This document shows, piece after piece, positions 1,383 through 22,338 of a stretch of DNA of 22,338 nt (positions are counted from its first letter, which is position 1; each line of letters starts with the position of its first letter). The position numbers and the translations under genes were made by a program. The notes below the pieces were generated by a model, which saw only the letters and a list, made by a program, of their open reading frames with translations, did not search any database and was not told the DNA's origin. The stretch is from a virus, in UHGV virus genome UHGV-0785299; one strand, given 5' to 3'.

Positions 1383-1407
1383 CTTAATCTCCTCGGGGAT
1401 TTCAGTT

Positions 1408-1415
1408 ATTTATAA
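1408..1415 (-). promoter_or_regulatory. T4-type late promoter box TATAAATA (reads on minus strand)
   Basis: Plus-strand TATTTATA at 1408-1415 is TATAAATA on the minus strand, about 26 nt upstream of the ATG at 1382; a gp55-like late sigma gene is present in the same window. Confidence 0.55.
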
Positions 1416-1435: not shown

Positions 1436-4400
1436 TCAGATCTTAATCTGCATGTTTCCACCCAGGGACTGCTCATACTCGCTGTATGCACTTTCCCCGT
1501 TGTCTTGCGACCACTGGTCAGACTGTTGGGCACGAGCCAGGGTCATCAGGTTTGGTTCAGTCGGGTTGTAGCCCTTGGACTTCGCATCCCGGTACAGAGT
1601 CTGCAGGTACTGGTTGGCGCGGTCAATCTGAGCTTTGAACTCTCGATATGCCCCTTCAGTTGTGTTGCGGCGGAAGGTGATATCCCAGTCCACGTTCAGA
1701 GTCTGCCCATCACGGCTTGCATAGATCTGCCAATCCAGGTCGCGACCTTTTGGTGCGTTGTCTCGGATGGAGTCGGCGTATGCCGCAAGGTCGGCACCAG
1801 TCTTCTTCGCAGTACTCGACTCTTTCTCCAGTCTCTCGGTTTCTTTGGATAGGATACCCAACATAAAATCATTAGTGCGGCGATCCGCCATGTCGTACCC
1901 GCGCCAAAGGACTGAACCGTTGTTGTCAACAGAAATGTCGTCCAAAAATACTTGTTTCGGATTATACGACGTGCTTTTCAGAGTTTGCATATTCCGAGAT
2001 ATCATTTCCATATTAGAAGAAATTTCATCGATCACGGCCTGAACAATATCTTTCTTCAAAGTAAGTTCATATGTCTTCGGATTGTTCAGGGTACGACCTT
2101 TATTGGATACCATAGGCGTGATCGCCACTTTGCCTTTGTCGTAGTAATAGGTCACATTCGTGGTCAATACAGCACCATCATACTTCCCAGTTTTCGGGAA
2201 ATTGACGCCAGACCAAGTGATGGACATACCGTTGACAGTCTCACCAAACACCATGGCGTTGCGTGGCATCTTCAGGGTTCCAGAGTTGACCAGATCATCG
2301 CCTTGGGCATTCAGGTCGATAGAACCATAGATGGTCCCGGTGATACGATCTTTCAGCATCAGGGTCTTGTCGCCTTTCTCTGGGATGATTTCCAGTGGGT
2401 GCTTGCCACGCGGAGGCTCTTTGATGAGTTCCAGCAGAGCAGTGTTCCCTGGCTTCACACGATTCAGGACAGCGTCGGACACTGTCAGAGTCCAGTTTGC
2501 GGTTTCCACATAACCCCAGCCCCGAGAACGGCGAATGGCTTTGATAGGATATGGAGCGCTTGTTGGCACTGCGCTAATTTCCCATTTGCCAGTGTACTGG
2601 GTCTTGGCAACCTCAAAGATGGACGCAATTACCGCATTGGCGACGTCACGGGCGCTACCTTTGGCCACGTTCTCCTCTTCAGCAATTTCGCTGAAAACTG
2701 AGTATTGAACGAAACCAGCGAGGACGTTTGTGAAGTTGACAACGATAACCAACCCGCCTGCCGTCGTGTAACGACCAGCGCCCACACGACGGATGTTCTC
2801 ACCAGGAAGAATAGAAGTGTCCAGCCCAACGTTGGTATCAATGATACCCAGAACACGAGCGATGAAACCGCTGTCGCGTAATTGATCAACACTGGTTGCA
2901 CCCTCGGTCGAATCCGATGCGGATTTAGACACTTTGTTCAACTTGATAGAGACAAGGGTTTCCCCGTTGACACCGATGATATCCCATTCAGTACCCTGCT
3001 CGTTCGAGATGCGGGCAATCTTGCGCTTTGAATTGATGGCACCTTCGTAACGCCCGTTCTTGACTACAACAGAGGCTGTGGCAGCATCAGTAGCACTTGC
3101 TGCATTTGAAAAGTCTGGGTCAGAAATACTGATATCGACGTCACCGTTTTGAGAACGCATGCGAACACCGTTTTTGAATCGTTCCACGTTTACTTCTCGA
3201 GCACCAAGTCGTTTGGCATCAATAACAGCAGTTCCAGAACCGATAATATTGGCTGGGTTATTTCTGTCTGAACTGTTTTGAGAACCTTTCCAAAATTTTG
3301 TGGACGCCGTGGTGAAATCATTCAGGATACTGATAGGGACTTGTGGTAATTTCAACTGACGAGCAATGAAATCAGCACTTTGCCCACGCACAGGTTTCTC
3401 ATTCATGTATGCGCCAACATACACGCCCGGCTCATTGTAGTGGGGAGCGATATTTGCCGTGTTCATGCGGCCTCTCTCCTTACCAGCCCATAACAACATG
3501 GGCTGATCCCCGTTTGAAGTTAATTTCCATCCGTTGGAATTATCAACAGAAGATGAAGAACCAGCCCCGGTTCCCAAGTTTGTTTTTCTGGAATCTTCTA
3601 CGTTTAGATTGAACAATTGTTTCCCAGATGAGTCGGAAGCAATAAATTCATATTTCTTGCCACTGCGGGTACTCGTGCTGTTAACTTTGATGTTTCCAGT
3701 GTATCTTCCTGGATTCGTTTTTTGCATGAAATTGGTAATTGCAGCAGAAGGGGTTTTCATCCCAGAAATGATTCTAGCTGTCTCGGGATCAGTGAAAGAC
3801 ACTACGAGTTTGCGCCCATCCATCACTGTGATATCATTTCCAGACACCGAAATATCCAAGTCTTCCATTTCAGAACGGAAATCAACACCAACAACAATGG
3901 TTTGACCAGTTCCACCCACAACGCCATCAACGCTGTTCTGAACCGGAACGTCACCGACCTTGTCTGGATCATCCCAGGTGATACCCTGCATCTTCGGACC
4001 GTCGAATACCTGAGCCGGATCTTTACCCTTGCGGACCAGCCACACATAACCACGGTCAGGGACAGGCGCGTAGGTCAGGTCCATGACATTCAGTTTCTGT
4101 TTCAGGCCGGACTGGCGGATGATCTTAGGAATCAGGGTCATACCGCGATCCAGCGCTTTCTTAGAGAAGTTGACAGCAAAGCCATCGATGGTCTTGCCCA
4201 GAGGAGTCGCCATGAATTGTTTGGTCGCTTCGATCATGGAAGCGATAACGCGCATTGGGTTCTTGAAGCGAGCGATGGCGTCAGGATAGACGGAGCCGCG
4301 CTTCTGGCCGATGAAAACCTGACGAACGCTCTTGCCCAGCCCCTGAGGGGTATAGAACTGAATACGGTATTCCTTTTCATCTTCGTCGATGAAGGTGAAG

Positions 4401-4513
4401 AACACATCGCCTGCGTTCTTCTTACCCATGGTCAGCTCATACGGAGCGGAGTTGAACGCTTCGTCCAACTGATCTCTTTCCTGCATGAACTGGAGGAAAC
4501 TTAGCTTTGACAT
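1436..4513 (-). CDS. large hypothetical protein, 1025 aa; possibly a virion-packaged protein
   Basis: Uninterrupted 3078-nt ORF; GGGAGA RBS 7 nt upstream of ATG at 4513; Gly/Ser/Thr/Asn-rich central region; no nucleotide-binding or catalytic motif recognised. Functional guess rests on context (immediately upstream of the late-promoter/CTS-like gene) and a loose resemblance of the N-terminal ~150 aa to the T4 Alt N-terminal region, recalled from memory. Confidence 0.7.
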   Translation of the reverse strand: MSKLSFLQFMQERDQLDEAFNSAPYELTMGKKNAGDVFFTFIDEDEKEYRIQFYTPQGLGKSVRQVFIGQKRGSVYPDAIARFKNPMRVIASMIEATKQFMATPLGKTIDGFAVNFSKKALDRGMTLIPKIIRQSGLKQKLNVMDLTYAPVPDRGYVWLVRKGKDPAQVFDGPKMQGITWDDPDKVGDVPVQNSVDGVVGGTGQTIVVGVDFRSEMEDLDISVSGNDITVMDGRKLVVSFTDPETARIISGMKTPSAAITNFMQKTNPGRYTGNIKVNSTSTRSGKKYEFIASDSSGKQLFNLNVEDSRKTNLGTGAGSSSSVDNSNGWKLTSNGDQPMLLWAGKERGRMNTANIAPHYNEPGVYVGAYMNEKPVRGQSADFIARQLKLPQVPISILNDFTTASTKFWKGSQNSSDRNNPANIIGSGTAVIDAKRLGAREVNVERFKNGVRMRSQNGDVDISISDPDFSNAASATDAATASVVVKNGRYEGAINSKRKIARISNEQGTEWDIIGVNGETLVSIKLNKVSKSASDSTEGATSVDQLRDSGFIARVLGIIDTNVGLDTSILPGENIRRVGAGRYTTAGGLVIVVNFTNVLAGFVQYSVFSEIAEEENVAKGSARDVANAVIASIFEVAKTQYTGKWEISAVPTSAPYPIKAIRRSRGWGYVETANWTLTVSDAVLNRVKPGNTALLELIKEPPRGKHPLEIIPEKGDKTLMLKDRITGTIYGSIDLNAQGDDLVNSGTLKMPRNAMVFGETVNGMSITWSGVNFPKTGKYDGAVLTTNVTYYYDKGKVAITPMVSNKGRTLNNPKTYELTLKKDIVQAVIDEISSNMEMISRNMQTLKSTSYNPKQVFLDDISVDNNGSVLWRGYDMADRRTNDFMLGILSKETERLEKESSTAKKTGADLAAYADSIRDNAPKGRDLDWQIYASRDGQTLNVDWDITFRRNTTEGAYREFKAQIDRANQYLQTLYRDAKSKGYNPTEPNLMTLARAQQSDQWSQDNGESAYSEYEQSLGGNMQIKI

Positions 4514-5667: not shown

Positions 5668-6281
5668 TATCTTGTCCTCTTCAGTTTCTCTATTGTGTGC
5701 TTGTTCATGGCGATCACCTGAGGATCTACCTCGGAGATGGTCCGGCCTTCGAAGGACACACATTTCTGAAGATATTTAGCTTTCTTCACGACGTCGGCAG
5801 CATAAGCGTTCGATGCGGGATTACGGGCGAAGCCAGCATTGTAAGAGGAGAGGGATTTGCGGATATTCTGATTGTGATAGGTCAGCCAGAACTGCATCTC
5901 ATCGAGGGCGGCTTGCGCGGCATATTCTTGGTCGGTCAGCAACTTTATGGCGACATTGGCATAGCACTTGCGATTCTTACAACCTTCGCGATCACCAACT
6001 GTCTTCACCTTGTTCTGAAAGGCTCCCATGTTGGCCGCCTTGAGGCCGTATCGCATTGACACTACATCTTCGCCAGCGCGGCTCTCACGCCAAGATATGG
6101 CGGCCAGAGTGTAGCCAAGATCTTGTGTCTTGCCCACGTGATAGGCGGTTGCCATCGTATTAAGTTGTTGCTCGGAGAAATTATAAACACATTGACTTGT
6201 ATTTTGGGAAGCGTGCACATTCCCGCTGGCAATGGTAAAGGTCACGGACAAGGCCATGGCCTTCAACGTTGTCATCGTCAT
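5667..6281 (-). CDS. secreted lysozyme-like / lytic transglycosylase-like protein
   Basis: 204-aa ORF with N-terminal signal-peptide-like segment MTMTTLKAMALSVTFTIASGNVHA; SWRESRAGED and YNAGFARNP segments resemble SLT-domain catalytic-Glu and YNAG motifs; AAGGAA RBS upstream of ATG 6281. Confidence 0.5.
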   Translation of the reverse strand: MTMTTLKAMALSVTFTIASGNVHASQNTSQCVYNFSEQQLNTMATAYHVGKTQDLGYTLAAISWRESRAGEDVVSMRYGLKAANMGAFQNKVKTVGDREGCKNRKCYANVAIKLLTDQEYAAQAALDEMQFWLTYHNQNIRKSLSSYNAGFARNPASNAYAADVVKKAKYLQKCVSFEGRTISEVDPQVIAMNKHTIEKLKRTR

Positions 6282-6337: not shown

Positions 6338-6373
6338 TTAAAAGATAAAGGGCACGTGGTATTTAGTGCCCTT
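6338..6373 (-). terminator. intrinsic terminator-like hairpin (8-bp stem AAGGGCAC/GTGCCCTT) with TATCTTTTAA tract on minus strand
   Basis: Perfect inverted repeat 6348-6355/6366-6373 with 10-nt loop, immediately downstream of the stop at 6379. Confidence 0.45.
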
Positions 6374-7136: not shown

Positions 7137-9482
7137 TCAATCCTTCTTGATAACTTCAGTCAGGCCGTTTCGCAGGCCGTAGCGAATGTTGTGTTGGAAA
7201 TATTCCTGGAACTCCTGTTCGCGCTGGCTAATAACAAACAGGTTGTTCCCACCGAACTTATGCTTCAACATCTCAACCGATTCCTGCACCCCGCGCTCGC
7301 TCATGTTCTCAAGGATCTCGTCCAACACGAACAGGTTACATTGTACAGACGCCTTGAGGTTAGCCACATCGCGCAGAGCTAATGTCACAGCCAGGTTCAG
7401 ACGACTGCGCTGACCAGTAGACAGGGAGAAGATGCTCTGTCCTTTGCGGCCTGCTGCGCTCATGGTGATCTCAAAGGTATCGTCAACAACGATGTCCAAG
7501 AACATGTTGAGGGCTTCAAGATACTCGTTGATCTTGCTATTGAGGAATGGCAGATACAGAGCGATGATACGCGCCTTGGTCTGGTCATCTTTCAAGAAGA
7601 ACAGCAGGTGTTGTAAGTCCTGGAGTTCCTCATCTGCATCTTCACGGAGTTCATACAGAGCCTCCAGTTCACCTTCCAACGCAGCGATAGAGTTCTCCAG
7701 GTCGGTGGTAGGTGTTGGCTGTACAGCCAGTTTACGCTCCAGATCGGCAATAGACGCCACGAGAGGAGCACGACGGGCTTTCAGCTCGGCGATCTTATCA
7801 TCGACGGCTTTAATCCCGCTGACGGCATTCTCTCGCGTCTGTTGCAGCGACGCAGTGATGTCTTCAAAACGAACGTTCAGTGCCTTACGGATGTCAAGGA
7901 TCTTCTGTTGGCATTCACGGTTCAGCGAATTACACTCAATCGTGGCGGCATCATGAAAACCTTGAATATCACGGCGCAGCTGCTTGATGTTGTCGACGAT
8001 TTCGTCGGCCTGCTTGCGCATTGCATCCAGTTCAGCATCCAACATAGCAATGTCAGCAACCAGCTTGTCGTCCTGAGCCTTGTGGTCATCGATCAGGACA
8101 TTGATATCGGCGGTAACTTTGTCCAGTTGATCTAACTTCGACTGTAGTTCCTGGATCTGAGGATTGTACTCGCTTTCAATACGCGCCTTGGTATCGTCGG
8201 ACACCAGTTGGGTACATGTTGGGCAAGTCCCCATATCGTGGAAGCGCTTGATGGCCGACTGGTGGCCATCCATTTCGGTCTGGAACTTGATGCGGAAGTT
8301 CTCACCCTGTTGGCGACGCTGAATAGCAGCGTTCAGGGCATCCAGGTTTGCATTGCGCTCGGTGAGCAGGGTGTTCTTGCGTTCGGCCACTGTAAAGGCG
8401 CGGTCACGCAAGACCTGAAGATCATGCTCCGCAGTAGACACTTCGATGCGCTCATAATCGTCAGCCTTGTCCTGCGCGGCGTCCTTCACCGCCTGGACCT
8501 TGGTATCAAAGTCTTTCTTGACAGCCTCGATCTCTACCATGGATTCATCATGCAGGCGGCTTTCCACCGTCTTCATTTCCTGGGTGGCTTCAAACTCCAC
8601 AGCCGTGAGGCGGGTGCGCTCTTCATTCTGGGCGGCGATGTCAGCATCCAAGGAATTCAGGGCTTCCTGTTGCTGTACAAGGATATCGGCCGACCGCTGT
8701 TGGATCAGGGCGTTGGATTGCTCGATCTGCTGAAGCTGCGTCTTCTTGTTGGTGTGGTCAACAACCTTCAACGCACATTCATTCGCGATCGTGTCCAGCT
8801 TTTCGTTCGCTTTCTTGATGGATGCCTTGACATCTTCGTTCATCAGGCTGAAGAAGCCCAAGTCCCAGATAGTCTCCACCATGGCGCGGCGGTCGGCTGT
8901 GTACATCTCCGTGAACGGAATGAACTTCTCTTTGCCCAGCACCAGAGAGTTCTCAAACATCTTCTGGTCCACGCCGATGAGGTTCACGATGTACTTGTTC
9001 ATGTCGGCTTTGGCTGCTTCGTTATCGATCTGCAACCACTTGCCGTCCACCATCTGGTAGACTTCAACAAAGTCAGGTTTAATGCCACGGCGAACCTTCC
9101 ATTCGCTACCACGGCAGGCAAACTCTACCTCGCCCACACATTCCTTGCGGCTTTGTGAGTTAACCAGGCCTGCCTTCTTCTCCTTCTTACTGTACGTGTC
9201 GTTGTACAGTACGAAAAACAGCAGCCATACCAGCATCGTGGATTTACCCGCGCCGTTGTCATCAGACGTGACGAGGGTAGCCGGGTTGCGCTGATAATCA
9301 ATCTCCATGAATTGATTGCCGATGGAGCGGAAGTTCTTGGCGCGGCCTTTGCGGAAGGTCAGTTTGTGCGTAACGTTGTTACGCACTTCAAATGGGACTT
9401 CAACCTCGACCGGGGCGTCGGCTTCCTTCAAAAGATTACCAAATTTGGTCAAGATATCTGTGCTCTGAGTCATGTTATGCAT
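7137..9482 (-). CDS. Rad50/SbcC-family recombination ATPase (T4 gp46-like)
   Basis: 781 aa; Walker A TSDDNGAGKST near N-terminus; long coiled-coil middle with CPTC zinc-hook-like motif; ABC signature LSTGQRSR and Walker B LFVLDEIL near C-terminus; start overlaps stop of the Mre11-like gene. Confidence 0.9.
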   Translation of the reverse strand: MHNMTQSTDILTKFGNLLKEADAPVEVEVPFEVRNNVTHKLTFRKGRAKNFRSIGNQFMEIDYQRNPATLVTSDDNGAGKSTMLVWLLFFVLYNDTYSKKEKKAGLVNSQSRKECVGEVEFACRGSEWKVRRGIKPDFVEVYQMVDGKWLQIDNEAAKADMNKYIVNLIGVDQKMFENSLVLGKEKFIPFTEMYTADRRAMVETIWDLGFFSLMNEDVKASIKKANEKLDTIANECALKVVDHTNKKTQLQQIEQSNALIQQRSADILVQQQEALNSLDADIAAQNEERTRLTAVEFEATQEMKTVESRLHDESMVEIEAVKKDFDTKVQAVKDAAQDKADDYERIEVSTAEHDLQVLRDRAFTVAERKNTLLTERNANLDALNAAIQRRQQGENFRIKFQTEMDGHQSAIKRFHDMGTCPTCTQLVSDDTKARIESEYNPQIQELQSKLDQLDKVTADINVLIDDHKAQDDKLVADIAMLDAELDAMRKQADEIVDNIKQLRRDIQGFHDAATIECNSLNRECQQKILDIRKALNVRFEDITASLQQTRENAVSGIKAVDDKIAELKARRAPLVASIADLERKLAVQPTPTTDLENSIAALEGELEALYELREDADEELQDLQHLLFFLKDDQTKARIIALYLPFLNSKINEYLEALNMFLDIVVDDTFEITMSAAGRKGQSIFSLSTGQRSRLNLAVTLALRDVANLKASVQCNLFVLDEILENMSERGVQESVEMLKHKFGGNNLFVISQREQEFQEYFQHNIRYGLRNGLTEVIKKD

Positions 9483-10590
9483 CCAGTTTGTTCAGGCGTT
9501 GTTGGGCAGCATTATAGAAGTGCTCTGCTAGTTTACAGACATTGTCGGGGCGCTGAATGTTGTTCCCGGCGCGGATATCCTTCTTCAGGACTTCCACCGC
9601 ATCGGTCGCCACCATCTCTTCGGTGACCTCAACCTTCTCGGCAGCAACAGTAATCGTCCGGTCGATGAAGTTATAGTCAATACACTTGCATCGCTTCATC
9701 GCATCACAGAACTTTTCATAATGCTTAGCATTGTCGCGGTTCTGTACAATAACCTTAACGATTTGCCCTTCAATACCCAAGCCTGTGTTCAACCATTCCG
9801 GGTCGATCCAATTGCCTTCTTCATCAGAGGACAACTTGGTGTAATCATATTCCACATAGCGGAACAGCGTCTGATTCTCGGCGTTTGGGATAAAGATCTC
9901 ACCACCACGCATGTCGTCCACATAGAAGCCACGGTTGGTGCCGTCTTTGTAGTCTTCCCAGTTCAGGTGATACGGAGTCCCAATATATTGAATGTTACCT
10001 TCCATCGAACGGGTATGGAAATGGCCCGTGTCGACCCTGGTAAACTTGGAAAGCAGCGCAACGTCGATCTGACCGTGATCACAAGTAGAAGACTGGTACA
10101 TTTTGAACCCCGCCAGCTCCAGATGCGCAAAACAGTACTCGGCGTCTGTATCTTGTATCGCTTTAATAGACGCATCATAGTTCTCCTTGTTGATCCAAGG
10201 CAGCAGCAGAGTCTTGACACCCTCGATCATCACTTCGGTTGGTTCGCTGTAATAGCAGTACACATCCGGGTCGAGTTCGTTCAGGTAGGATGGCCAGTTG
10301 ATGCGGTTGGACTCTTCCAGGGTGATGTCATGGTTGCCCACGATGCCATTCCACTTGATACCAGCCGCTTTCAGCGCTGGAGTTAATTCATCCTTCAGCC
10401 AGTCTTTGTCGCGCCCGTACATGAATTTGCGGACATCAAACATATCACCGAACTGCCAGACCTCTTTGATATCAGAGTCGGCAAGTTCAGGAATGAAATA
10501 ATTGATGAGATAGTTCTTGATGAAGTCGCGAACGTATCGAGAACCATTACGGCTCCCGATATGCAGATCACCAATTTTAGCAATCGCCAT
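9475..10590 (-). CDS. Mre11/SbcD-family nuclease (T4 gp47-like)
   Basis: 371 aa; calcineurin-like phosphoesterase motifs GDLHIG, GDMFD, GNHD, GHFH in canonical order; immediately upstream of and overlapping the Rad50-like gene, as in T4 genes 47-46. Confidence 0.9.
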   Translation of the reverse strand: MAIAKIGDLHIGSRNGSRYVRDFIKNYLINYFIPELADSDIKEVWQFGDMFDVRKFMYGRDKDWLKDELTPALKAAGIKWNGIVGNHDITLEESNRINWPSYLNELDPDVYCYYSEPTEVMIEGVKTLLLPWINKENYDASIKAIQDTDAEYCFAHLELAGFKMYQSSTCDHGQIDVALLSKFTRVDTGHFHTRSMEGNIQYIGTPYHLNWEDYKDGTNRGFYVDDMRGGEIFIPNAENQTLFRYVEYDYTKLSSDEEGNWIDPEWLNTGLGIEGQIVKVIVQNRDNAKHYEKFCDAMKRCKCIDYNFIDRTITVAAEKVEVTEEMVATDAVEVLKKDIRAGNNIQRPDNVCKLAEHFYNAAQQRLNKLDA

Positions 10591-11318
10591 TATTCTGTTT
10601 CTCCTTCGGTTTCATCTAGTCCGAATTGGGTTTTGCCGAAGTCCTGATCTGAATTGTCTTCGGCCTGCGCTGTTACCGTATTCTTAGCCTGCGCCATGTA
10701 TTGAAGTATGCCTTTCGCAATCTTTTTATTCGATTCTGCGAGACGAGCTGCCTCCACCTTCTCTCGCTCCTTCTGCCTTTGAGCGTCCTTTTTGTTCTCA
10801 AAGTTGCCGATACGTTCACGGAAGTCCATGCCAATTCCTGTAGCATCAACAAAGACCTCTTGTTGGAAGTCGGGATCGTCTGCCAGGCCTGCGAACCCAC
10901 CCGCCTCTTCAAATGAGCGCAATTTAATGTACGTGTGCTCTTCTTCGATGTTCAGTTTACGAGCAAATGATCGATCAGCACACATGGTCACCCAAGAGAA
11001 GAAGTTGATCTTCCCTTTCTTTCCAATGTGTTCGACGTCAAATGTGTGGAGGTAGCGCAGGATATTGACTATTGCTTCAGAGACCATGTCTTCACGGAAG
11101 GGATAGTCGCGATAGTTGTAGCGGGTGCTCATCTTGGTGATGATGCGCTGGACCTGTAGAGCAACATAGTTGGGGATCTTTGGAAGCCTGGTGCCTTCAG
11201 CCAGAGCCTTCTTACGAGCAGGGATCCAATCACGAAGGATACTGATGACACGCTCGTTATCTTCGTCTGTGAAATATTTGACGACATTCTCCCCTCTGTC
11301 CACGAAGTTCATTCCCAT
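10590..11318 (-). CDS. late-transcription sigma factor (T4 gp55-like) with acidic C-terminal extension
   Basis: 242 aa; position directly upstream of the 47/46-like pair matches T4-like gene order; N-terminal half (ISILRDW..., RYNYRDY, ...LHTFD) resembles T4 gp55 from memory; perfect TATAAATA boxes occur in the window; GAGGGA RBS; 1-nt stop/start overlap with the gp47-like gene. Confidence 0.55.
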   Translation of the reverse strand: MGMNFVDRGENVVKYFTDEDNERVISILRDWIPARKKALAEGTRLPKIPNYVALQVQRIITKMSTRYNYRDYPFREDMVSEAIVNILRYLHTFDVEHIGKKGKINFFSWVTMCADRSFARKLNIEEEHTYIKLRSFEEAGGFAGLADDPDFQQEVFVDATGIGMDFRERIGNFENKKDAQRQKEREKVEAARLAESNKKIAKGILQYMAQAKNTVTAQAEDNSDQDFGKTQFGLDETEGETE

Positions 11319-11329
11319 TATGAAATCCC

Positions 11330-11857
11330 TCAGATACCGATAAATTCATCAAAAGATCCAACAACCTTCTTCACCGAGATATTGTCATTCTCAATCAGGA
11401 AGTTGCTGTCGTTTTTGGCTGCTGTAGCCCAGTCATCGGCAAGTTCGTTGCCTTCGTGTCCCGCATGACCCTTAACCCATTTTAGTTCAACTTCACAGAT
11501 TGAACAAACGAGATCATAGATTCTGAACAGATCTTTGATGAGTTCAACGTTCTTTTCTGGGAAACCCTGATACTCCCACTTCGTTCGCCATTCGGTGACA
11601 CTCTTGATGGCATATTGGCTGTCAGACCAAATTGTTGCCTTTGGTATTCTGCGCTCACCCTTTCCTGAGAATGCCCACAGTAGCTTCAATGCGTTGGTCA
11701 CGCCCAACAACTCGGCGATATTGTTAGTGGACGGGGGAGGTAGATGGCCGAAGAACACCTTCCATTGCATACCCGTTATTGGCCTGATAACAAATGCCCA
11801 GCCTGCGGCCTGGTTGGTCTTCGGGTTAGAACCCCCGTCAGAATAAATTTCTATCAT
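11330..11857 (-). CDS. rnhA: ribonuclease HI
   Basis: ORF 11330..11953; preferred start ATG at 11857 (MIEIYSDGGS...). Strong match to E. coli RNase HI catalytic segments: YSDGGS (TDGS), TNNIAELLG (TNNRMELMA), SDSQYA (TDSQYV), KWVKGHAGHEGNELAD (WVKGHAGHPENERCD). Confidence 0.8.
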   Translation of the reverse strand: MIEIYSDGGSNPKTNQAAGWAFVIRPITGMQWKVFFGHLPPPSTNNIAELLGVTNALKLLWAFSGKGERRIPKATIWSDSQYAIKSVTEWRTKWEYQGFPEKNVELIKDLFRIYDLVCSICEVELKWVKGHAGHEGNELADDWATAAKNDSNFLIENDNISVKKVVGSFDEFIGI

Positions 11858-11859
11858 GA

Positions 11860-11867
11860 TATAAATA
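11860..11867 (+). promoter_or_regulatory. T4-type late promoter box TATAAATA (plus strand)
   Basis: Exact TATAAATA at 11860-11867, 35 nt upstream of ATG 11903 with AGAGGA RBS in between; directly abuts the RNase HI start codon on the opposite strand. Confidence 0.55.
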
Positions 11868-11902
11868 TCCCAAACTGGTTTTATAGAAAGAGGAATGAAA
11901 CT

Positions 11903-12670
11903 ATGGCACCCCGCGCATATCGTTTCAGTCTCACCGCCCCGCAGATTGAGCAATTGCTCCTCTCTATCTATGATGCTATCAAGTCAGAAGATATCATCTA
12001 TGATTATGCTGCAGGTGGGACTGCTGGACAAGTCGCAGCAGCGTCTGCTGTCAAGAACATGTGGTTGAAGCTCAACGAGATGGTGACAGGCCAAGGTCTC
12101 AAAGATGCCATCAACGATGCAGAAGACAGCAACGTGTTCACCGACTATTATAAGTCTTTACTGGATCGCGAAGGTTGGAAATTTATTGGATCTCCAGCAG
12201 ATGAACTTCAGCGAGGCGACATCGATACCTCGAACTTCAAAGGTGGTGAGGTCATTCTACTTCAGAAGAACGCTTCGGGCAACCCAGAATTCCAATACTG
12301 GAAGCGAACCCCTGTTGCTGGGGGTGATCCTACCTTTGCATGGGCTTCGGTCTATGAAGGGAACTCTAATGATTCCAGCATAGAGATTCCCGTGGTTGGC
12401 ACCAGCGTACTCAAGGACATCCCCAAGGCACTCTTCCATATGATCGAGTTCAGAGTGCATGTCTACGATGAGACACTGGGTCATTGGCAAGACACCGACG
12501 GGAAGGTGGGGTATCGTGGCGAGGATCTGATCTACAGTGTATACAACCATATTCAGACCAAACCTCTCGCCACCATTGACTTCAGCCAAGATACGGACAA
12601 TATGACGGTTTCTGTGACGTCGTTGGAACCGAATGTCAAGTGCCATCTGTCCTTCGTTGCGGGTTACTAA
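11903..12670 (+). CDS. hypothetical late protein (255 aa), possibly structural
   Basis: ORF 11744..12670; preferred start ATG 11903 (MAPRAYRFSLTAPQ...) because it follows the late-promoter box and RBS and avoids overlap with RNase HI coding sequence; stop overlaps the stop of the convergent helicase gene (CTAA); no motif recognised. Confidence 0.6.
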   Translation: MAPRAYRFSLTAPQIEQLLLSIYDAIKSEDIIYDYAAGGTAGQVAAASAVKNMWLKLNEMVTGQGLKDAINDAEDSNVFTDYYKSLLDREGWKFIGSPADELQRGDIDTSNFKGGEVILLQKNASGNPEFQYWKRTPVAGGDPTFAWASVYEGNSNDSSIEIPVVGTSVLKDIPKALFHMIEFRVHVYDETLGHWQDTDGKVGYRGEDLIYSVYNHIQTKPLATIDFSQDTDNMTVSVTSLEPNVKCHLSFVAGY

Positions 12671-14385
12671 ACCTCAAACACGGCATCAGTGAACCAAGCG
12701 GGGAAGAACTCTGGGTTGCGCATCATAAGTGATTCAAAAGAAGAATCAAGGATGTACGTCGCAGCCCAGTCATTCACGCCCCTGACCGAACGCCCACACA
12801 TCTGAACGATACGCAGTACCGCCATCCTGAAGTACGCCGATGGGTCCACACTGTTGACGTGGGCCACCAGAGGATCACCAAGGTAATCGTATGGCACCTT
12901 GATCAAGATCTGAAATCTGCTATAATCGCCTTTGAAGTCATACCCCTCTTCCATGGCCGGACTGGCGATGACACAAGGCGTCTTCGTCCTGAACGCGTGT
13001 TCCATGATGTCCATCAGAGCCTTACGAGTACGAGGAACGTGAATCATATTCCGGTACTTACTGAACTTTTGTAGAGCCAGGGCGCGGTCATAACTGACTG
13101 TGTGAATGATGCCAGACTGCCCAGGGTGGAACGCGATAATTTCATCCACGTATTCAGCCAGCTTCTTCATCTCGTAGTCACCCATGTTCGCTGTCATCTT
13201 CATGATGGGCATGTAGTTGACTTTCCGGTTCTCAATCGGGATAGGGTTGCCGATCTGTATCTTGTGGTACTCACCCTCGGGGATACCCAGTGACCGGGCG
13301 TACGAGTCAATCCCACAAATGGTAGCCGACATGTGAACGTGGTAGTCACCCTTGCGGAACAGGCCGAACTGGGATACATCAGAGGCGATGACAGGCTTGA
13401 ACTGAATCATACCCTTGTCCTTCTCCTGTACGATGAAAGTGCTGGCGTTGGTCTGCCCCATGATACCACAGTAGTCGCTGAGGTTGTGAAGAGTATCAAT
13501 AATATCAGACAGCTTCATCACCTGGGCTTCAGTCAGGCGCTCGTCCTCTACCAGTTCCTCAAGAGTTTCCAACAGGGCTTCAACCTTGCCGTGCAGTTCA
13601 TCAAATATCGCATGCATCTCACCAGACAGGGAATACAGCTTGCCCAATTCATAGTTCTCTGTGCGGATGATGATATCCTTGATGGTCTCCACGATAGGCA
13701 CTCCCTCAGGGATCGTAAGCAACCCTTCCACAGCCTTTATGTTGTATTCCATGATAGTATGCTCTAGGAGCGTAGAGGGCATTTTATGACACTCGTCAAG
13801 GATCAGCATATCGGCACGGTTTTCCGGCTTCATACAAATCGTCGTACACATCTCCACCATCATGGCGGCGTTGGTGCAGCGCAGGGAGGAGACGTCGGTC
13901 CACTGTCGACGCGCCTGAACATATGGACAACGATTCTTACTACAGTGGCCATCACGGCATGCCATACGGCACTGAATGGCGTTGTAGTATAGGTCGGGGC
14001 TGATGTGGCAACGGTAGTTCTTCTTGCCCTTCAGGATGTCTATCGCCACGGCTTTCTCTGCTGCATACTGATCCTGTAAACCTTTGGTCGGCGTCGTGAT
14101 AGACGTGCGGAACTGACCATACGGGTTGTGCTCAAGAACCAAATGGCGAAGCACGTTATGGATGGTAGTGCCGATGAGGGATTTACCTACACCAGTCGGA
14201 GCCTCGATGATCACGTGTTTGAATTTCTTATTCACAAGGGCATCAATGGCTTCAACGATGCATTCCATCTGGCCGGGGTTGGCGGTGTCATACGGGAAGA
14301 ACTCAGTGGCAAGAGACTTGATGCGGTCTATGCTGACTGGTCCGACGCCGTCAAGCGCCTTGGTATATTGGTTGAATGCTGTCAC
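12667..14385 (-). CDS. DinG/XPD-like superfamily-2 helicase with Fe-S cluster cysteines
   Basis: 572 aa; GTG start with AGGAGGAA RBS; Walker A IEAPTGVGKSLIG; DEAH-type box LILDECHKM; Cys cluster CHISPD ... CRMACRDGHCSKNRCP between them; HMSATICG (SATL-like motif) and GRSVRG near C-terminus. Confidence 0.75.
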   Translation of the reverse strand: MTAFNQYTKALDGVGPVSIDRIKSLATEFFPYDTANPGQMECIVEAIDALVNKKFKHVIIEAPTGVGKSLIGTTIHNVLRHLVLEHNPYGQFRTSITTPTKGLQDQYAAEKAVAIDILKGKKNYRCHISPDLYYNAIQCRMACRDGHCSKNRCPYVQARRQWTDVSSLRCTNAAMMVEMCTTICMKPENRADMLILDECHKMPSTLLEHTIMEYNIKAVEGLLTIPEGVPIVETIKDIIIRTENYELGKLYSLSGEMHAIFDELHGKVEALLETLEELVEDERLTEAQVMKLSDIIDTLHNLSDYCGIMGQTNASTFIVQEKDKGMIQFKPVIASDVSQFGLFRKGDYHVHMSATICGIDSYARSLGIPEGEYHKIQIGNPIPIENRKVNYMPIMKMTANMGDYEMKKLAEYVDEIIAFHPGQSGIIHTVSYDRALALQKFSKYRNMIHVPRTRKALMDIMEHAFRTKTPCVIASPAMEEGYDFKGDYSRFQILIKVPYDYLGDPLVAHVNSVDPSAYFRMAVLRIVQMCGRSVRGVNDWAATYILDSSFESLMMRNPEFFPAWFTDAVFEV

Positions 14386-14435: not shown

Positions 14436-14470
14436 AAAAAGCCGGAGTACAATGCTCCGGCTTTCTCTTT
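14436..14470. terminator. bidirectional intrinsic terminator hairpin (GCCGGAG/CTCCGGC) flanked by A5 and T-rich tracts
   Basis: 7-bp GC-rich stem 14441-14447/14455-14461 with 7-nt loop; AAAAA upstream and TTTCTCTTTT downstream on plus, giving a U-tract in either direction; sits between the HU-like gene stop and the helicase start. Confidence 0.6.
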
Positions 14471-19935: not shown

Positions 19936-19954
19936 GGTATAGTTCCTGCCTTCC

Positions 19955-20194
19955 TTGGTGAAGCCAGAAGACACTGTGAGCGTTCTGTATTTCTCCTCCA
20001 AAGGCGACTTTGGTACTGTGTTCGCTGGCCGCCAGATCAATGCAGCATCCGACCTGAGCGAAATCAACAAACTGATCGACCGTTTCCTGCAACCATCCGG
20101 CTGTACTGGTTTCGTTGAGCCATTGAAACTGGCGATGGATACTGCTCGTGGCCTGAGAAGCCTGGCTACGTCACAACCTGGCGTTCATGACTGA
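19955..20194 (+). pseudogene. fragment of a vWA-domain gene (frame-disrupted)
   Basis: TTG-initiated ORF encoding VSVLYFSS...GCTGFVEPLKLAMDTARGL...QPGV, which looks like the central strands and helices of a von Willebrand A domain; the expected next motif (FMTDGYDN) is encoded immediately downstream but in another frame (20184-20207), and frame-2 stops occur at 20192 and 20201. Confidence 0.45.
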
Positions 20195-20317
20195 CGGGTA
20201 TGACAACTGCTGGCGTACCACGAAATTCTACTGGTTGCTGAGACCCTGCCATTTGCTTTCGATAACATTACTTTCATCGAATATGGCTGGTACTGTAACC
20301 GAGAACTGCTGGCGCAG

Positions 20318-21487
20318 ATGGCCGAACTCTCTGGTGCTACTCACGTGTTTGCCGAAGGTCAGACCGAATACCAGACCGAACTGGAAAACGTGCTGAAGTC
20401 ATCAGTGCCGAAGGTGGTTGTTGATGTGCCTCTGCTATACACCCACGCCATCTATGTTGAAAACGGCGTAGCAACTGTTCTGGCGGTACAGCCGGATGAA
20501 GACCATCCTATCGGCCACGTGAGCATCCCTGAGAGCGTCACCAAGCTGTGGGTTGTAAACCCTAACATGATCGACCAGATGGATAGCCTGACGGACATCC
20601 AGGCGGCATATGTGCTGGCGTTCTACGGTGTACACACTATGGACGCAGATCTGGTTTGGGCTGCGCTGAAGAAGACGGGCGACGTTCGCTTCATCAAACA
20701 GTACAGCAACTGCTTCACCAAGCAGGACTACTCCAACATCAAGAACGATCTGGTACAGGCGATTGTTGACGACCAGCTGCGCGGCGTTGACGGTATTGAC
20801 TATGACCTGGTTCCAGCTGAAGATGCGACCACCGTCGTTGATGTGCTGACGTACCTGGCTGAAGCTGGTGTGCCTGTTGCTACCAAGCATCCGATGTTCT
20901 CCTACAAGAGCATCGGGCGCGGTACTGTGCAGAAAACCGACGACACCGAAGACAAGCTGGCAGAACAGATCGCGAATGCTCAGTCCAAAGAAGAGCGTAA
21001 AGCCCTGGCTCTCAAGCTGGCAGAGCACGAAGAGTGGAACCCGACGTTCGAACCTACCAACGATCTGGGTGTTGTGCCAATCAGTGATTTGGTCTATAAC
21101 TCCGAGCGCCCGAACATCAGTGTGCGTACAATTCAACACGGTACTGTGGCTGTGCCTGAATTCGCACAGAAGAAGTTTGGCCTGCCTGAAGAACTGGATA
21201 CTTTCCAGTGGCGCAACTACACCATCGTCAAAGACGGTATCATTAACGTGAAGACTCTGCCGTTCAAGGCTGATATCGAAGTCGTGCATAAGCTGATCGA
21301 AATGGGCGTCCACGTGTTTGGTGGTCCAGAAGTGTTTGTCCTGAACCTGGAAAGCGTACCGCTGGTCAACCGCGCCATGGTCAAGAACATCAGTGCTGCT
21401 CAGTTCTTTGCGGATAATGTCCGTCTGGAAGCCCTGAAAAGGCAAGCAGAAGGTGCTGAAGTTCTATCGAGACGCCCTGGTTGGTAA
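20318..21487 (+). CDS. central part of the vWA-domain protein (open frame actually extends upstream to 20204)
   Basis: 389-aa ORF in the same frame as the 19955 fragment; protein-like translation continues upstream of the first ATG back to 20204; ends 5 codons after an A4 run where a +1 shift joins it to the next ORF. Confidence 0.6.
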   Translation: MAELSGATHVFAEGQTEYQTELENVLKSSVPKVVVDVPLLYTHAIYVENGVATVLAVQPDEDHPIGHVSIPESVTKLWVVNPNMIDQMDSLTDIQAAYVLAFYGVHTMDADLVWAALKKTGDVRFIKQYSNCFTKQDYSNIKNDLVQAIVDDQLRGVDGIDYDLVPAEDATTVVDVLTYLAEAGVPVATKHPMFSYKSIGRGTVQKTDDTEDKLAEQIANAQSKEERKALALKLAEHEEWNPTFEPTNDLGVVPISDLVYNSERPNISVRTIQHGTVAVPEFAQKKFGLPEELDTFQWRNYTIVKDGIINVKTLPFKADIEVVHKLIEMGVHVFGGPEVFVLNLESVPLVNRAMVKNISAAQFFADNVRLEALKRQAEGAEVLSRRPGW

Positions 21488-22058
21488 GGGTAACGCCAAA
21501 GGCCTGGCAGTACAGTACGGCGCTGAGGCGGCCGAGTTCCTGTCCTCCTACGGCATCCGCGATTACGGCTTCTCACCGAAGACTGAGACCAAAGAGTCTA
21601 CCGACTTCTACATGAGCCGTGAGCTGAACGTGAAGATCGCCGGGGCGTCTTCACTACCGAGCATCGCGGCAGTACAGAAGAAGATCGCAGAGAACAAGAA
21701 ACTCAATGCTGGTGACTTGTTCATCGCCAATGCTCTGAAAGAGTACGAAGCATTCGTGAAGTCTCCTATGATCACTGCCGTGCCTGAAGCCTTACAGAAA
21801 CAGCTGATCGAAAACTGGATCGACGCTGCTGCCAAGGCGGCCATCACCGAAGTCCGTGCCCTGAACAAGACACTGTCTAAAGTGGTGTATGGTATCGTTG
21901 CTGGCCACGGCTGGTTCACCGACCTCGACCTGGAAGAGTCCACCATGGAAGTTGAAGTGGATGGCGTGAAGTACAAGGTCACTGCCGAACTGACAGAGAA
22001 AGAAAATCAAAATCTAATCCAACGGGCGGGGCAACCCGCCTTTCTTTGGGAGAAGTAG
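21453..22058 (+). CDS. C-terminal part of the same protein (reached by a +1 shift at 21437-21440)
   Basis: GTG-initiated ORF; skipping one A of the AAAA run at 21437-21440 fuses ...NVRLEALK to GKQKVLKFYRDALVGKGNAKG... without a stop; last codons overlap a terminator hairpin. Confidence 0.55.
   Translation: MLKFYRDALVGKGNAKGLAVQYGAEAAEFLSSYGIRDYGFSPKTETKESTDFYMSRELNVKIAGASSLPSIAAVQKKIAENKKLNAGDLFIANALKEYEAFVKSPMITAVPEALQKQLIENWIDAAAKAAITEVRALNKTLSKVVYGIVAGHGWFTDLDLEESTMEVEVDGVKYKVTAELTEKENQNLIQRAGQPAFLWEK
22025..22047 (+). terminator. intrinsic terminator (GGCGGG/CCCGCC stem, GCAA tetraloop, TTTCTTT tract)
   Basis: Perfect 6-bp GC stem 22025-22030/22035-22040 with GNRA-type loop followed by a T-rich run; overlaps the last codons of the upstream ORF and precedes the RBS GGGAGAAG of the next gene. 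Confidence 0.55.
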
Positions 22059-22059
22059 C

Positions 22060-22338
22060 ATGAGCAGTAAACCAACATATGTTGAAGTCATGCGTCATCT
22101 GGCTCAGTACGCCACTGACAATCTGAATATGGATCTGTGGCGTGACGATGACAAGCGCAAATTGCTGGACGACGTGGCATCTCAGAACGAGGACGCCCTG
22201 GACAAGCTGGCTGGTCTCCGTACCAAGAAAGACCTCGGCGGTGACGAACTGGATGCCATCGAAATCGTAATGGAACTAGAAGAAGAGTTTCAGGTCGAAA
22301 TCGACGACGGTTGGCTGGGTAGTAAAGGTGATGACCCG
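22060..22338 (+). CDS. acyl-carrier-protein-like protein with Glu at the expected phosphopantetheine-attachment Ser position (C-terminus runs off the window)
   Basis: ATG 22060 with GGGAGAAG RBS; hand translation ...KKDLGGDELDAIEIVMELEEEFQVEIDDG closely parallels the ACP core [27 protein letters not shown] (recalled from memory), with the attachment Ser replaced by Glu. Confidence 0.6.
   Translation, partial: MSSKPTYVEVMRHLAQYATDNLNMDLWRDDDKRKLLDDVASQNEDALDKLAGLRTKKDLGGDELDAIEIVMELEEEFQVEIDDGWLGSKGDDP

What the first reader, a model, noticed from the sequence alone, without database searches (positions are those of the whole stretch)
11855..12670. Single late-promoter-driven plus-strand gene wedged between RNase HI and the helicase
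An exact TATAAATA at 11860-11867 lies 3 nt from the RNase HI start codon on the other strand and 35 nt upstream of a 255-aa plus-strand gene. This is the only substantial plus-strand gene inside an otherwise minus-strand block, and its stop codon overlaps the stop of the convergent helicase gene with no terminator between them. The product has no recognisable motif and could be a structural or accessory late protein.
Basis: seen in the sequence. Interest (0 to 1): 0.45.

Follow-up and report, generated by a model that had tools for sequence, protein, structure and literature searches.

The report
Late virion gene, divergent T4 gp9 relative
The lone plus-strand gene is a real, late-expressed virion protein that was already known in this phage family (Ackermannviridae); the new point is that its C-terminal domain is a distant relative of the T4 baseplate protein gp9, which this family was thought to lack.

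Summary
TATAAATA lies at 11860-11867, 35 nt upstream of a 255-aa gene (11903-12670, +). Its stop codon overlaps that of the convergent helicase gene.

The window is an Agtrevirus-like Ackermannviridae phage, 99% identical to Escherichia phages YX22 and AV101.

The Dickeya phage LIMEstone1 orthologue (ORF093, 92% identical) was confirmed in virions by mass spectrometry in 2012. Its GenBank record already marks a late promoter at the same spot.

The upstream ATG at 11744 is not the start. Other genera have in-frame stop codons 15-84 nt upstream of the conserved ATG.

What I add:
- Residues 157-253 are homologous to the C-terminal domain of T4 gp9, the baseplate socket for the long tail fibres (hhalign 95%, E 2.5e-8; reversed-sequence controls E 0.6-0.75).
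- The N-terminal ~140 residues are shared with tail-fibre proteins.
- In Vibrio phage Kuja the gene sits directly upstream of the gp6- and gp7-like baseplate wedge genes.

Most likely it is a trimeric adaptor at the baseplate periphery. Its binding partner is unknown. Interest is modest.

The parts
11860..11867 (+). T4-type late promoter element TATAAATA, the gp55-dependent -10 element. The transcription start is inferred near 11873.
   Evidence: Exact match. The same motif lies 39-46 nt upstream of the orthologue's ATG in Limestonevirus, a Klebsiella phage and Serratia Miltonvirus. Kuttervirus has TATAAGTA; Vibrio relatives have CTAAATA. It is annotated as a putative late promoter in HE600015. 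The start position is inferred from T4 (motif at -13 to -6) and was not measured.
11890..11894 (+). Ribosome-binding site GAGGA, 8 nt upstream of the start codon
   Evidence: A GAGGA/GGAG-type site is conserved before the ATG in all 10 loci examined.
11903..12670 (+). Coding sequence of 255 aa (about 28 kDa, acidic). It is a conserved Ackermannviridae virion protein, PHROG 3833.
   Evidence: There are 357 phage records with a homologue, and identity is 52-96% across genera. Mass-spectrometry evidence comes from LIMEstone1.
11903..12322 (+). N-terminal module (about aa 1-140): helical, highly conserved, and shared with longer tail-fibre proteins. It is the presumed virion-attachment and trimerisation part.
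   Evidence: Helices in the AlphaFold model. P0102 (628 aa), P0096 (430 aa) and P0082 (409 aa) share the N-terminal part of the protein (query residues 3-142, 3-229 and 3-163) and continue into tail-fibre or tail-protein PHROG matches or a longer C-terminal extension.
12074..12172 (+). One unit (aa 58-90, ...GLKDAINDAEDSNVFTDYYKSLLD...) of a helix-loop-helix repeat. The same unit is tandemly repeated in long phage tail fibres.
   Evidence: Long proteins match only query positions 58-90, 4-9 times each (sequences). All of them fall in tail-fibre PHROGs.
12371..12661 (+). C-terminal beta-sandwich domain (aa 157-253), homologous to the C-terminal domain of T4 gp9 (Pfam PF23618 region)
11330..11857 (-). 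Neighbour: divergent RNase HI gene. Its start codon lies 2 nt from the late promoter.
   Evidence: Pfam RNase_H E 5e-25; PHROG 531.
12667..14385 (-). Neighbour: convergent superfamily-2 DNA helicase gene. Its stop codon overlaps the stop of the late gene.
   Evidence: PHROG 2488 E 3.5e-259; Pfam Helicase_C_2, ResIII and DEAD. The same 4-nt overlap of gene ends occurs in Kuttervirus and the Klebsiella phage.
14438..14464 (.). GC-rich hairpin between the helicase and the HU-like gene. It is the only terminator-like site downstream on the + strand and could end the late transcript. This is inferred.
   Evidence: The same hairpin is listed as a minus-strand terminator (Torf127) in phage AG3 and is annotated in LIMEstone1.

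Best explanation
The gene 11903-12670 encodes a conserved virion protein of Ackermannviridae phages and is probably expressed late.

**Expression (inferred from sequence and T4).** It is probably transcribed from its own gp55-dependent late promoter (TATAAATA, 11860-11867), starting near 11873, and translated from ATG 11903. This is inferred from the sequence and from T4, not measured. There is no terminator before the convergent helicase gene. The late RNA therefore probably runs antisense into that gene, possibly as far as the hairpin at 14438-14464.

**The protein.** It is a divergent relative of T4 gp9, the trimeric 'socket' at the baseplate periphery. A conserved helical N-terminal module (about aa 1-140) contains one tail-fibre repeat unit and is shared with real tail fibres. 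I infer that it fixes the trimer to the baseplate. The C-terminal beta-sandwich (aa 157-253) is homologous to the gp9 C-terminal domain, the domain to which the T4 long tail fibre attaches coaxially. I infer that it forms the distal platform.

**Partner.** The partner that docks on that platform is not known. Candidates are the tailspike complex or the unexplained 'prongs' seen on these baseplates.

**What is shown and what is inferred.**
- Shown: the gene is real, its start codon, promoter conservation, presence of its orthologues in virions, homology to the gp9 C-terminal domain, and the link to tail-fibre modules.
- Inferred: late timing, trimeric state, location on the baseplate, and the adaptor role.

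Confidence is about 0.9 for 'late virion protein' and about 0.55 for 'gp9-like baseplate adaptor'.
For: **Real gene and start codon**
- 357 phage records encode it, and identity is 52-96% across genera.
- In-frame stops close the upstream extension in other genera, and the ribosome-binding site is conserved.

**Virion protein**
- LIMEstone1 ORF093 was recovered with 8 peptides and 40.8% coverage and is annotated 'confirmed structural protein'.
- The Vi01 orthologue is named 'phage associated protein'.

**Late promoter**
- Other structural genes carry the related CTAAATA[CT]C motif.
- The family encodes gp55, gp33 and gp45 homologues.

**Relation to gp9**
- hhalign gives 95%, E 2.5e-8. Controls are and specificity among T4 tail proteins.
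- Foldseek matches gp9-type proteins of Aeromonas phage 65 and Vibrio phage nt-1 at E 9e-8 and 8e-6. A phiAS4 protein annotated 'baseplate wedge subunit' matches at E 7e-8.
- PF23618 is the Pfam family most often matched, weakly, by family members: 5 of 69, best E 0.004.

**Tail and baseplate association**
- In Kuja the gene lies directly upstream, on the same strand, of gp6-like and gp7-like wedge genes.
- Relatives fuse the N-terminal module to tail-fibre C-terminal parts. P0082 is followed by a tail-fibre gene.
- The repeat unit occurs only in tail-fibre PHROGs.

**Open niche**
- tblastn with T4 gp9 returned no Ackermannviridae in the rows listed.
- A 2024 review states that the family lacks Gp9-Gp11.

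**Adaptor rather than receptor binder**
- The protein is 78-96% identical across phages of Escherichia, Shigella, Salmonella, Klebsiella, Dickeya and Enterobacter. That fits a structural adaptor better than a host-specific receptor binder.
Against: - No direct localisation of this protein in any virion exists.
- Sequence homology to gp9 is significant only for the C-terminal domain. The N-terminal 150 residues show no significant match to the gp9 N-terminal or middle domains.
- No member reaches Pfam's threshold for PF07880 or PF23618.
- The gp9 N-terminal and middle-domain homology in these phages already resides in tailspike protein TSP4. TSP4 may therefore bind the baseplate directly, without this protein.
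- In most genomes the gene sits among replication genes, not tail genes.
- Late timing and the transcription start are unmeasured.
- The dominant late motif in this genome is CTAAATA, not TATAAATA.
Confidence: 0.6

Rival explanations
1. It is a free-standing short fibre or 'prong' on the tail. The N-terminal module anchors it, and the gp9-like C-terminal domain is simply the distal tip, possibly touching the cell surface. On this reading it does not connect other proteins.
Against: High conservation across phages of six host genera argues against host-specific binding. The C-terminal domain's one specific relative, gp9, is a protein-protein docking domain. The protein is small for a visible prong.
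Confidence: 0.2
2. It is a head or neck accessory protein, such as a decoration protein, whisker or collar fibre, rather than a baseplate protein.
For: It has a fibre-like repeat plus a small beta-sandwich, as in some decoration and head-fibre proteins. The gene lies far from the tail gene cluster. The mass-spectrometry data do not localise it.
Against: Homology and the best fold matches are to a baseplate protein. Profile comparison with T4 wac, gp13, gp14 and gp15 shows nothing, E 0.1-0.6. Kuja synteny is with gp6/gp7 wedge genes. Module sharing is with tail-fibre PHROGs only.
Confidence: 0.1
3. It is a late non-structural protein, such as an assembly factor, that merely co-purifies with virions.
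For: The LIMEstone1 virion proteome also contained rIIB, DNA ligase, PhoH and gp44 as unexpected proteins.
Against: Those contaminants had under 5% coverage and 1 peptide each. ORF093 had 40.8% coverage and 8 peptides. Its Vi01 orthologue is named 'conserved phage associated protein' in the AG3 gene table.
Confidence: 0.04
4. The ORF is not the gene described. Either translation starts at ATG 11744 (a 308-aa product, as annotated in phage ChubbyThor), or the frame is a non-coding antisense shadow of RNase HI.
For: The frame is open back to 11744 in this window. One GenBank record uses the long form (P0002).
Against: In-frame stops lie 15-84 nt upstream of the conserved ATG in Kuttervirus, Miltonvirus, Vibrio and metagenomic loci. 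All homologues align from the same N-terminus. Only 5 nt of the ORF lie opposite the RNase HI gene region, none within the 255-aa coding sequence. Peptides were detected in virions.
Confidence: 0.01

Closest known systems
Bacteriophage T4 gp9 (baseplate wedge tail-fibre connector; PDB 1QEX/1S2E; Pfam PF07880 + PF23618)
   Different: There is no significant similarity to the gp9 N-terminal coiled coil or middle (XD1) domain. The N-terminal half is instead a tail-fibre-type module of about 140 aa. The protein falls below Pfam thresholds. The gene is not in the baseplate cluster, except in phage Kuja. These phages have no long tail fibres, so the docking partner must differ.
Dickeya phage LIMEstone1 ORF093 / Shigella phage AG3 orf124 / Salmonella phage Vi01 CBW37973 (PHROG 3833)
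   Same: These are direct orthologues (92%, 96% and about 82% identical) with the same flanking genes and the same promoter position. ORF093 is experimentally confirmed in virions.
   Different: Nothing substantive differs. Those records give no function ('unknown structural protein', 'hypothetical protein').
N-terminal region of CBA120 tailspike protein TSP4 (anchor domain + XD1)
   Different: TSP4 carries the gp9 N-terminal/middle-type part. The protein studied here carries the gp9 C-terminal-type part. The two do not overlap, so gp9-related domains are spread over two proteins in this family.
T4 late promoters (TATAAATA, gp55/gp33/gp45-dependent)
   Same: The octamer matches exactly, its distance to the start codon is appropriate, and gp55, gp33 and gp45 homologues are present.
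   Different: In this genome most structural genes carry CTAAATA[CT]C instead. Exact TATAAATA occurs only 4 times in 157 kb. No promoter of this family has been mapped experimentally.

Membership tests
T4 gp9 family (baseplate wedge tail-fibre connector) | C-terminal domain of the PF23618 (T4_gp9_10_C) type | tested here: met
   Profile-profile match at 95%, E 2.5e-8, over aa 158-253 against T4 gp9 177-281. Reversed-sequence controls were negative. The match is specific among T4 gp8-gp15. It is met only at profile-profile level: direct hmmscan of the window protein finds nothing, and 5 of 69 relatives give weak hits, best E 0.004, below the 25-bit cutoff.
T4 gp9 family (baseplate wedge tail-fibre connector) | N-terminal coiled coil plus middle XD1 domain (PF07880, T4_gp9_10_N) | tested here: not met
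   No Pfam hit at E<=1. hhalign gives no significant alignment for aa 1-156. The region is instead a tail-fibre-type module.
T4 gp9 family (baseplate wedge tail-fibre connector) | Overall fold resembles solved gp9 | tested here: inconclusive
T4 gp9 family (baseplate wedge tail-fibre connector) | Homotrimer located at the baseplate periphery, bound to gp7, with a fibre docked on the C-terminal domain | not testable with these tools
   Only monomer prediction was available, and no virion structure of this family is in the PDB. Indirect support comes from Kuja synteny with gp6/gp7-like genes.
Virion structural proteins of Ackermannviridae (PHROG 3833) | Orthology to a protein detected in purified virions | tested here: met
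   PHROG 3833 E 4e-160, full length. It is 92% identical to LIMEstone1 ORF093, which was detected by ESI-MS/MS.
T4-type late genes | gp55-type late promoter immediately upstream, and late sigma and co-activators encoded by the phage | tested here: met
   Exact TATAAATA 35 nt upstream, conserved across genera. gp55 is in the window. gp33 and gp45 homologues are reported for the family.
T4-type late genes | Transcript that starts at the promoter only after DNA replication begins | not testable with these tools
   No transcriptome or 5'-end data for Ackermannviridae were found in the library.

The most novel reading that the evidence does not exclude
Ackermannviridae have not lost gp9 but split it. 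The gp9 N-terminal/middle-type module sits at the root of tailspike protein TSP4, and the gp9 C-terminal 'socket' domain sits on this separate 255-aa protein. On this reading the 255-aa protein is the missing baseplate-side partner. It would anchor the branched TSP1-4 receptor-binding complex, or else the unexplained prongs or VriC, and relay receptor binding to the baseplate as gp9 does in T4.
Probability: 0.25. Interest if true: 0.55.

Novelty: new member of a known kind. Interest (0 to 1): 0.3.

Why it matters
As flagged, the feature is ordinary: a known virion gene behind an already annotated late promoter, in an arrangement common in T4-related genomes.

The value lies in the annotation gained. 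Ackermannviridae are widely used for biocontrol, detection and host-range engineering through their four tailspikes. How that complex is fixed to the baseplate, and what forms the peripheral baseplate, remain open. A 2024 review states that Gp9-Gp11 are absent.

A conserved virion protein with a gp9-type C-terminal domain and a tail-fibre-type N-terminal anchor gives a specific candidate. It can be tested by cryo-EM fitting, pull-downs with the N-terminal part of TSP4, or knockouts.

The work also shows that the family's usual late promoter is CTAAATA[CT]C. TATAAATA is a rare variant.

Tried and rejected
**Searches that found nothing for the target**
- Direct Pfam scans gave no family.
- PDB sequence searches with the single protein and with the profile gave only noise or nothing.
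- PHROGs gave only two families of unknown function.

**A false negative**
- The first hhalign, using the shallow 33-sequence alignment against the single T4 gp9 sequence, was negative (0.7%).
- The signal appeared only after I built a 69-sequence family alignment from the exhaustive search and a 7-sequence gp9 alignment.

**Models**
- The first AlphaFold model, from a 30-sequence alignment, was poor at the N-terminus (pLDDT 66). It was replaced by the 69-sequence model (pLDDT 84.7).

**Weak or empty tests**
- hmmsearch with a gp9 HMM against all AV101 ORFs does not find the target significantly (E 2.7).
- A literature search for Ackermannviridae transcriptomes or mapped late promoters found none.
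- A search for papers linking 'tail fiber connector' with this family found none.

**Considered and rejected**
- Start at ATG 11744.
- Antisense-shadow ORF.
- Beta-lactamase and other PDB noise hits.
- Spurious Pfam hits (DUF2922, Lectin_like) on the repeat-bearing fibres.

**Context look-ups**
- These were uninformative for P0096, P0060 and P0045, whose contigs were short.

Full report
**1. What the window is**

The region 11300-12900 is 99% identical to Escherichia phages YX22 and AV101. It is 90-95% identical to Shigella phage AG3 and the Dickeya Limestoneviruses. The window therefore comes from an Agtrevirus-like member of the Ackermannviridae, a family related to T4.

The gene order around the finding, on the minus strand, is gp46 (SbcC-like), gp47 (SbcD-like), gp55 late sigma factor and RNase HI. 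The plus-strand gene follows, and then a superfamily-2 helicase and an HU-like protein on the minus strand.

**2. The observation**

- TATAAATA lies at 11860-11867.
- The RNase HI start codon on the other strand is at 11855-11857.
- There are 35 nt between the motif and ATG 11903.
- The ORF encodes 255 aa and ends at 12670.
- Its TAA overlaps the helicase TAG (12667-12669).

The motif is not a chance occurrence.
- The window has two copies against 0.23 expected.
- The closest annotated complete genome, AV101, has four in 156.8 kb. All four lie 24-35 nt upstream of a co-oriented start codon.
- The second copy in the window (1407-1414, minus strand) precedes a 189-aa ORF. Its LIMEstone1 orthologue, ORF080, is a confirmed virion protein with an annotated late promoter.

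**3. Is it a gene, and where does it start?**

tblastn finds the protein in 357 phage records. Thirty homologues from public protein collections are 52-96% identical over the full length.

The frame is open back to ATG 11744 in this window, and one GenBank record (phage ChubbyThor) uses that start. In Kuttervirus, Miltonvirus, the Klebsiella phage, the Vibrio relatives and two metagenomic loci, an in-frame stop lies 15-84 nt upstream of the conserved ATG. Every locus keeps a GAGGA-type ribosome-binding site. The start is 11903.

**4. What was already known**

The GenBank record of Dickeya phage LIMEstone1 annotates the 92%-identical orthologue ORF093 as 'unknown structural protein; confirmed structural protein'. 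It also places a 'putative late promoter' at the homologous position.

The paper reports 8 unique peptides and 40.8% coverage for ORF093. The four proteins flagged there as unexpected (rIIB, DNA ligase, PhoH, gp44) had under 5% coverage each (PMC3296691). The AG3 gene table names the Vi01 orthologue 'conserved phage associated protein'.

The arrangement is also routine in this family. In AV101, gp54, gp4, gp26/gp5/gp25 and the ORF beside gp3 are likewise lone late genes on the opposite strand inside early gene blocks.

**5. The promoter in context**

Upstream regions of AV101 structural genes mostly carry CTAAATA[CT]C. These include gp22, gp18, gp14, VriC, three tailspike genes, gp6 and gp48.
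- The motif occurs 18 times against 9.8 expected.
- At least 14 copies lie 25-45 nt upstream of a ribosome-binding site and ATG.

The target's TATAAATATC shares the TAAATATC core.

The orthologue's upstream region has:
- TATAAATA in Limestonevirus, the Klebsiella phage and Miltonvirus;
- TATAAGTA in Kuttervirus (AV101 gp23 has CTAAGTA);
- CTAAATA in Vibrio phages BX-1 and K444.

The family encodes gp55, gp33 and gp45 homologues. The 2011 CBA120 paper states that the late recognition sequence had not been identified for this family. I found no transcript mapping. A late start near 11873 is therefore inferred from T4, where the motif spans -13 to -6.

There is no terminator before the convergent helicase gene. 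The only terminator-like hairpin downstream on the plus strand is at 14438-14464, so the late RNA probably runs antisense through the helicase gene. This is also inferred.

**6. What the protein is**

Direct Pfam and PDB sequence searches are empty. An exhaustive profile search found 81 cluster representatives. They fall into three groups.
- About 50 are full-length relatives of 245-260 aa.
- A few are longer proteins that share the N-terminal part of the protein (140-230 residues) and continue differently. P0102 and P0096 continue into tail-fibre or tail-protein PHROG matches. P0082 has a 165-aa C-terminal extension and is followed by a tail-fibre gene.
- Many are long proteins that match only residues 58-90, 4-9 times each. 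This is a helix-loop-helix repeat (...AEIRAAVEAATDSNVFTDADHSKLNAIE...), and all its bearers fall in tail-fibre PHROGs.

With a 69-sequence alignment, the AlphaFold model reached pLDDT 84.7. It shows four helices up to residue 105, a small beta region, and a confident seven-stranded beta-sandwich from residue 167 to 254.

Fold searches point to gp9.
- KP1 gp9 is a true T4 gp9 homologue, 42.5% identical.
- Foldseek against viral models finds, beyond the protein's own family, gp9-type proteins of Aeromonas phage 65 and Vibrio phage nt-1, a phiAS4 protein annotated 'baseplate wedge subunit', and several tail fibres.

The decisive test was a profile-profile comparison of the family with seven gp9 sequences.
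- Result: 95.2% probability, E 2.5e-8, aligning residues 158-253 with T4 gp9 177-281.
- My rerun gave E 8e-9.
- Reversing either alignment gave E 0.57-0.75.
- Among T4 gp8, gp9, gp10, gp11, gp12, wac, gp13, gp14 and gp15, only gp9 scores (E 1.5e-5). All the others score 0.07 or worse.
- PF23618, the gp9 C-terminal domain, is the Pfam family most often hit, weakly, by family members.

The N-terminal 150 residues show no significant relation to the gp9 N-terminal or middle domains.

**7. How it most likely works**

In T4, gp9 is a trimer. Its N-terminal domain binds gp7 at the baseplate periphery, and the long tail fibre attaches coaxially to its C-terminal domain (PMC3004832).

In the present family the constant part across relatives is the N-terminal module, while the C-terminal part varies or is replaced by fibre sequence. 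That is the usual logic of a virion-proximal anchor with a distal functional end.

In Vibrio phage Kuja the gene lies directly upstream, on the same strand, of gp6-like and gp7-like wedge genes.

The protein is 78-96% identical across phages that infect six host genera. That fits a structural adaptor better than a receptor binder.

I therefore propose a trimeric baseplate-periphery adaptor with a gp9-type distal platform. I hold this with moderate confidence, about 0.55.

Its partner is unknown. The baseplate partner of the TSP4 anchor domain is also unknown, and so is the composition of the 'prongs'.

In these phages the gp9 N-terminal/middle-type fold resides in TSP4. A gp9 HMM run against all AV101 ORFs picks out the TSP4-like protein through the middle domain (E 5e-4). 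gp9-related modules thus appear to be divided between two proteins.

**8. Comparison and novelty**

tblastn with T4 gp9 returned 1,503 records, with no Ackermannviridae in the rows listed. A 2024 review says the family lacks Gp9-Gp11. No paper in the library links 'tail fiber connector' with this family.

The gp9 relation therefore appears to be a new annotation of a known protein: a new, divergent member of a known kind. [quoted passage not shown]

**9. Verdict**

Interest is modest (0.3), and it rests on the candidate role at the poorly understood Ackermannviridae baseplate periphery.

Noticed in passing
window 19945-22338: This segment is inverted relative to AV101, RPN242, YX22, A221 and other relatives. 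The window is colinear with AV101 up to 19949, then matches AV101 97206 down to 94812 on the opposite strand (95.4% identity). One breakpoint falls 128 nt inside a conserved 733-aa gene (PHROG 2426). In the window that gene lies on the + strand, lacks its 5' end, and is split into two overlapping ORFs (20318-21487 and 21453-22058). It could be a real inversion or an assembly artefact. The second breakpoint lies beyond the window.
   Followed up: partly
window 1407-1414 (- strand), upstream of ORF 813-1382: This is the second exact TATAAATA, 24 nt upstream of a 189-aa ORF (PHROG 4048). The ORF's LIMEstone1 orthologue, ORF080, is a mass-spectrometry-confirmed virion protein with an annotated late promoter. 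The minus-strand 'early' block therefore also contains late structural genes.
   Followed up: yes
AV101 genome (L015-L018), e.g. 143837, 146320, 149906, 127905, 153792; window 5773-5779 and 6360-6366 (- strand): The usual late-promoter-like motif of this family is CTAAATA[CT]C, not TATAAATA. It occurs 18 times against 9.8 expected in AV101, mostly 25-45 nt upstream of structural-gene start codons. Exact TATAAATA occurs only 4 times.
   Followed up: partly
AV101 (L015-L018) 3500, 3995, 112093, 115290, 143837, 146320, 149906: Many predicted late 5' leaders begin right after the promoter motif with CCCCATA and end with TATGGGG(TAT) next to the start codon. This forms a conserved leader hairpin upstream of the tailspike genes and several genes of unknown function. 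Its function is unknown.
   Followed up: no
window 1436-4513 (- strand): This 1025-aa ORF (PHROG 3867) has no Pfam match and differs in length from AV101 (906 aa). The window-AV101 alignment breaks at 3556-3934, so there is an indel or a variable region inside this gene.
   Followed up: no
window 14438-14464: A 12-bp GC-rich hairpin lies between the helicase and the HU-like gene, with T-rich sequence on both sides. It is annotated as a minus-strand terminator in AG3 and LIMEstone1 and may act in both directions.
   Followed up: partly
L011/L012 (metagenomic T4-like contigs of about 150 kb), gene 8001-9887: A 628-aa protein fuses the N-terminal module of this family to a tail-fibre C-terminal part. 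It also sits alone among replication genes (dda-like helicase, uvsW, uvsY, clamp loader) and next to an IS605-type transposase.
   Followed up: no
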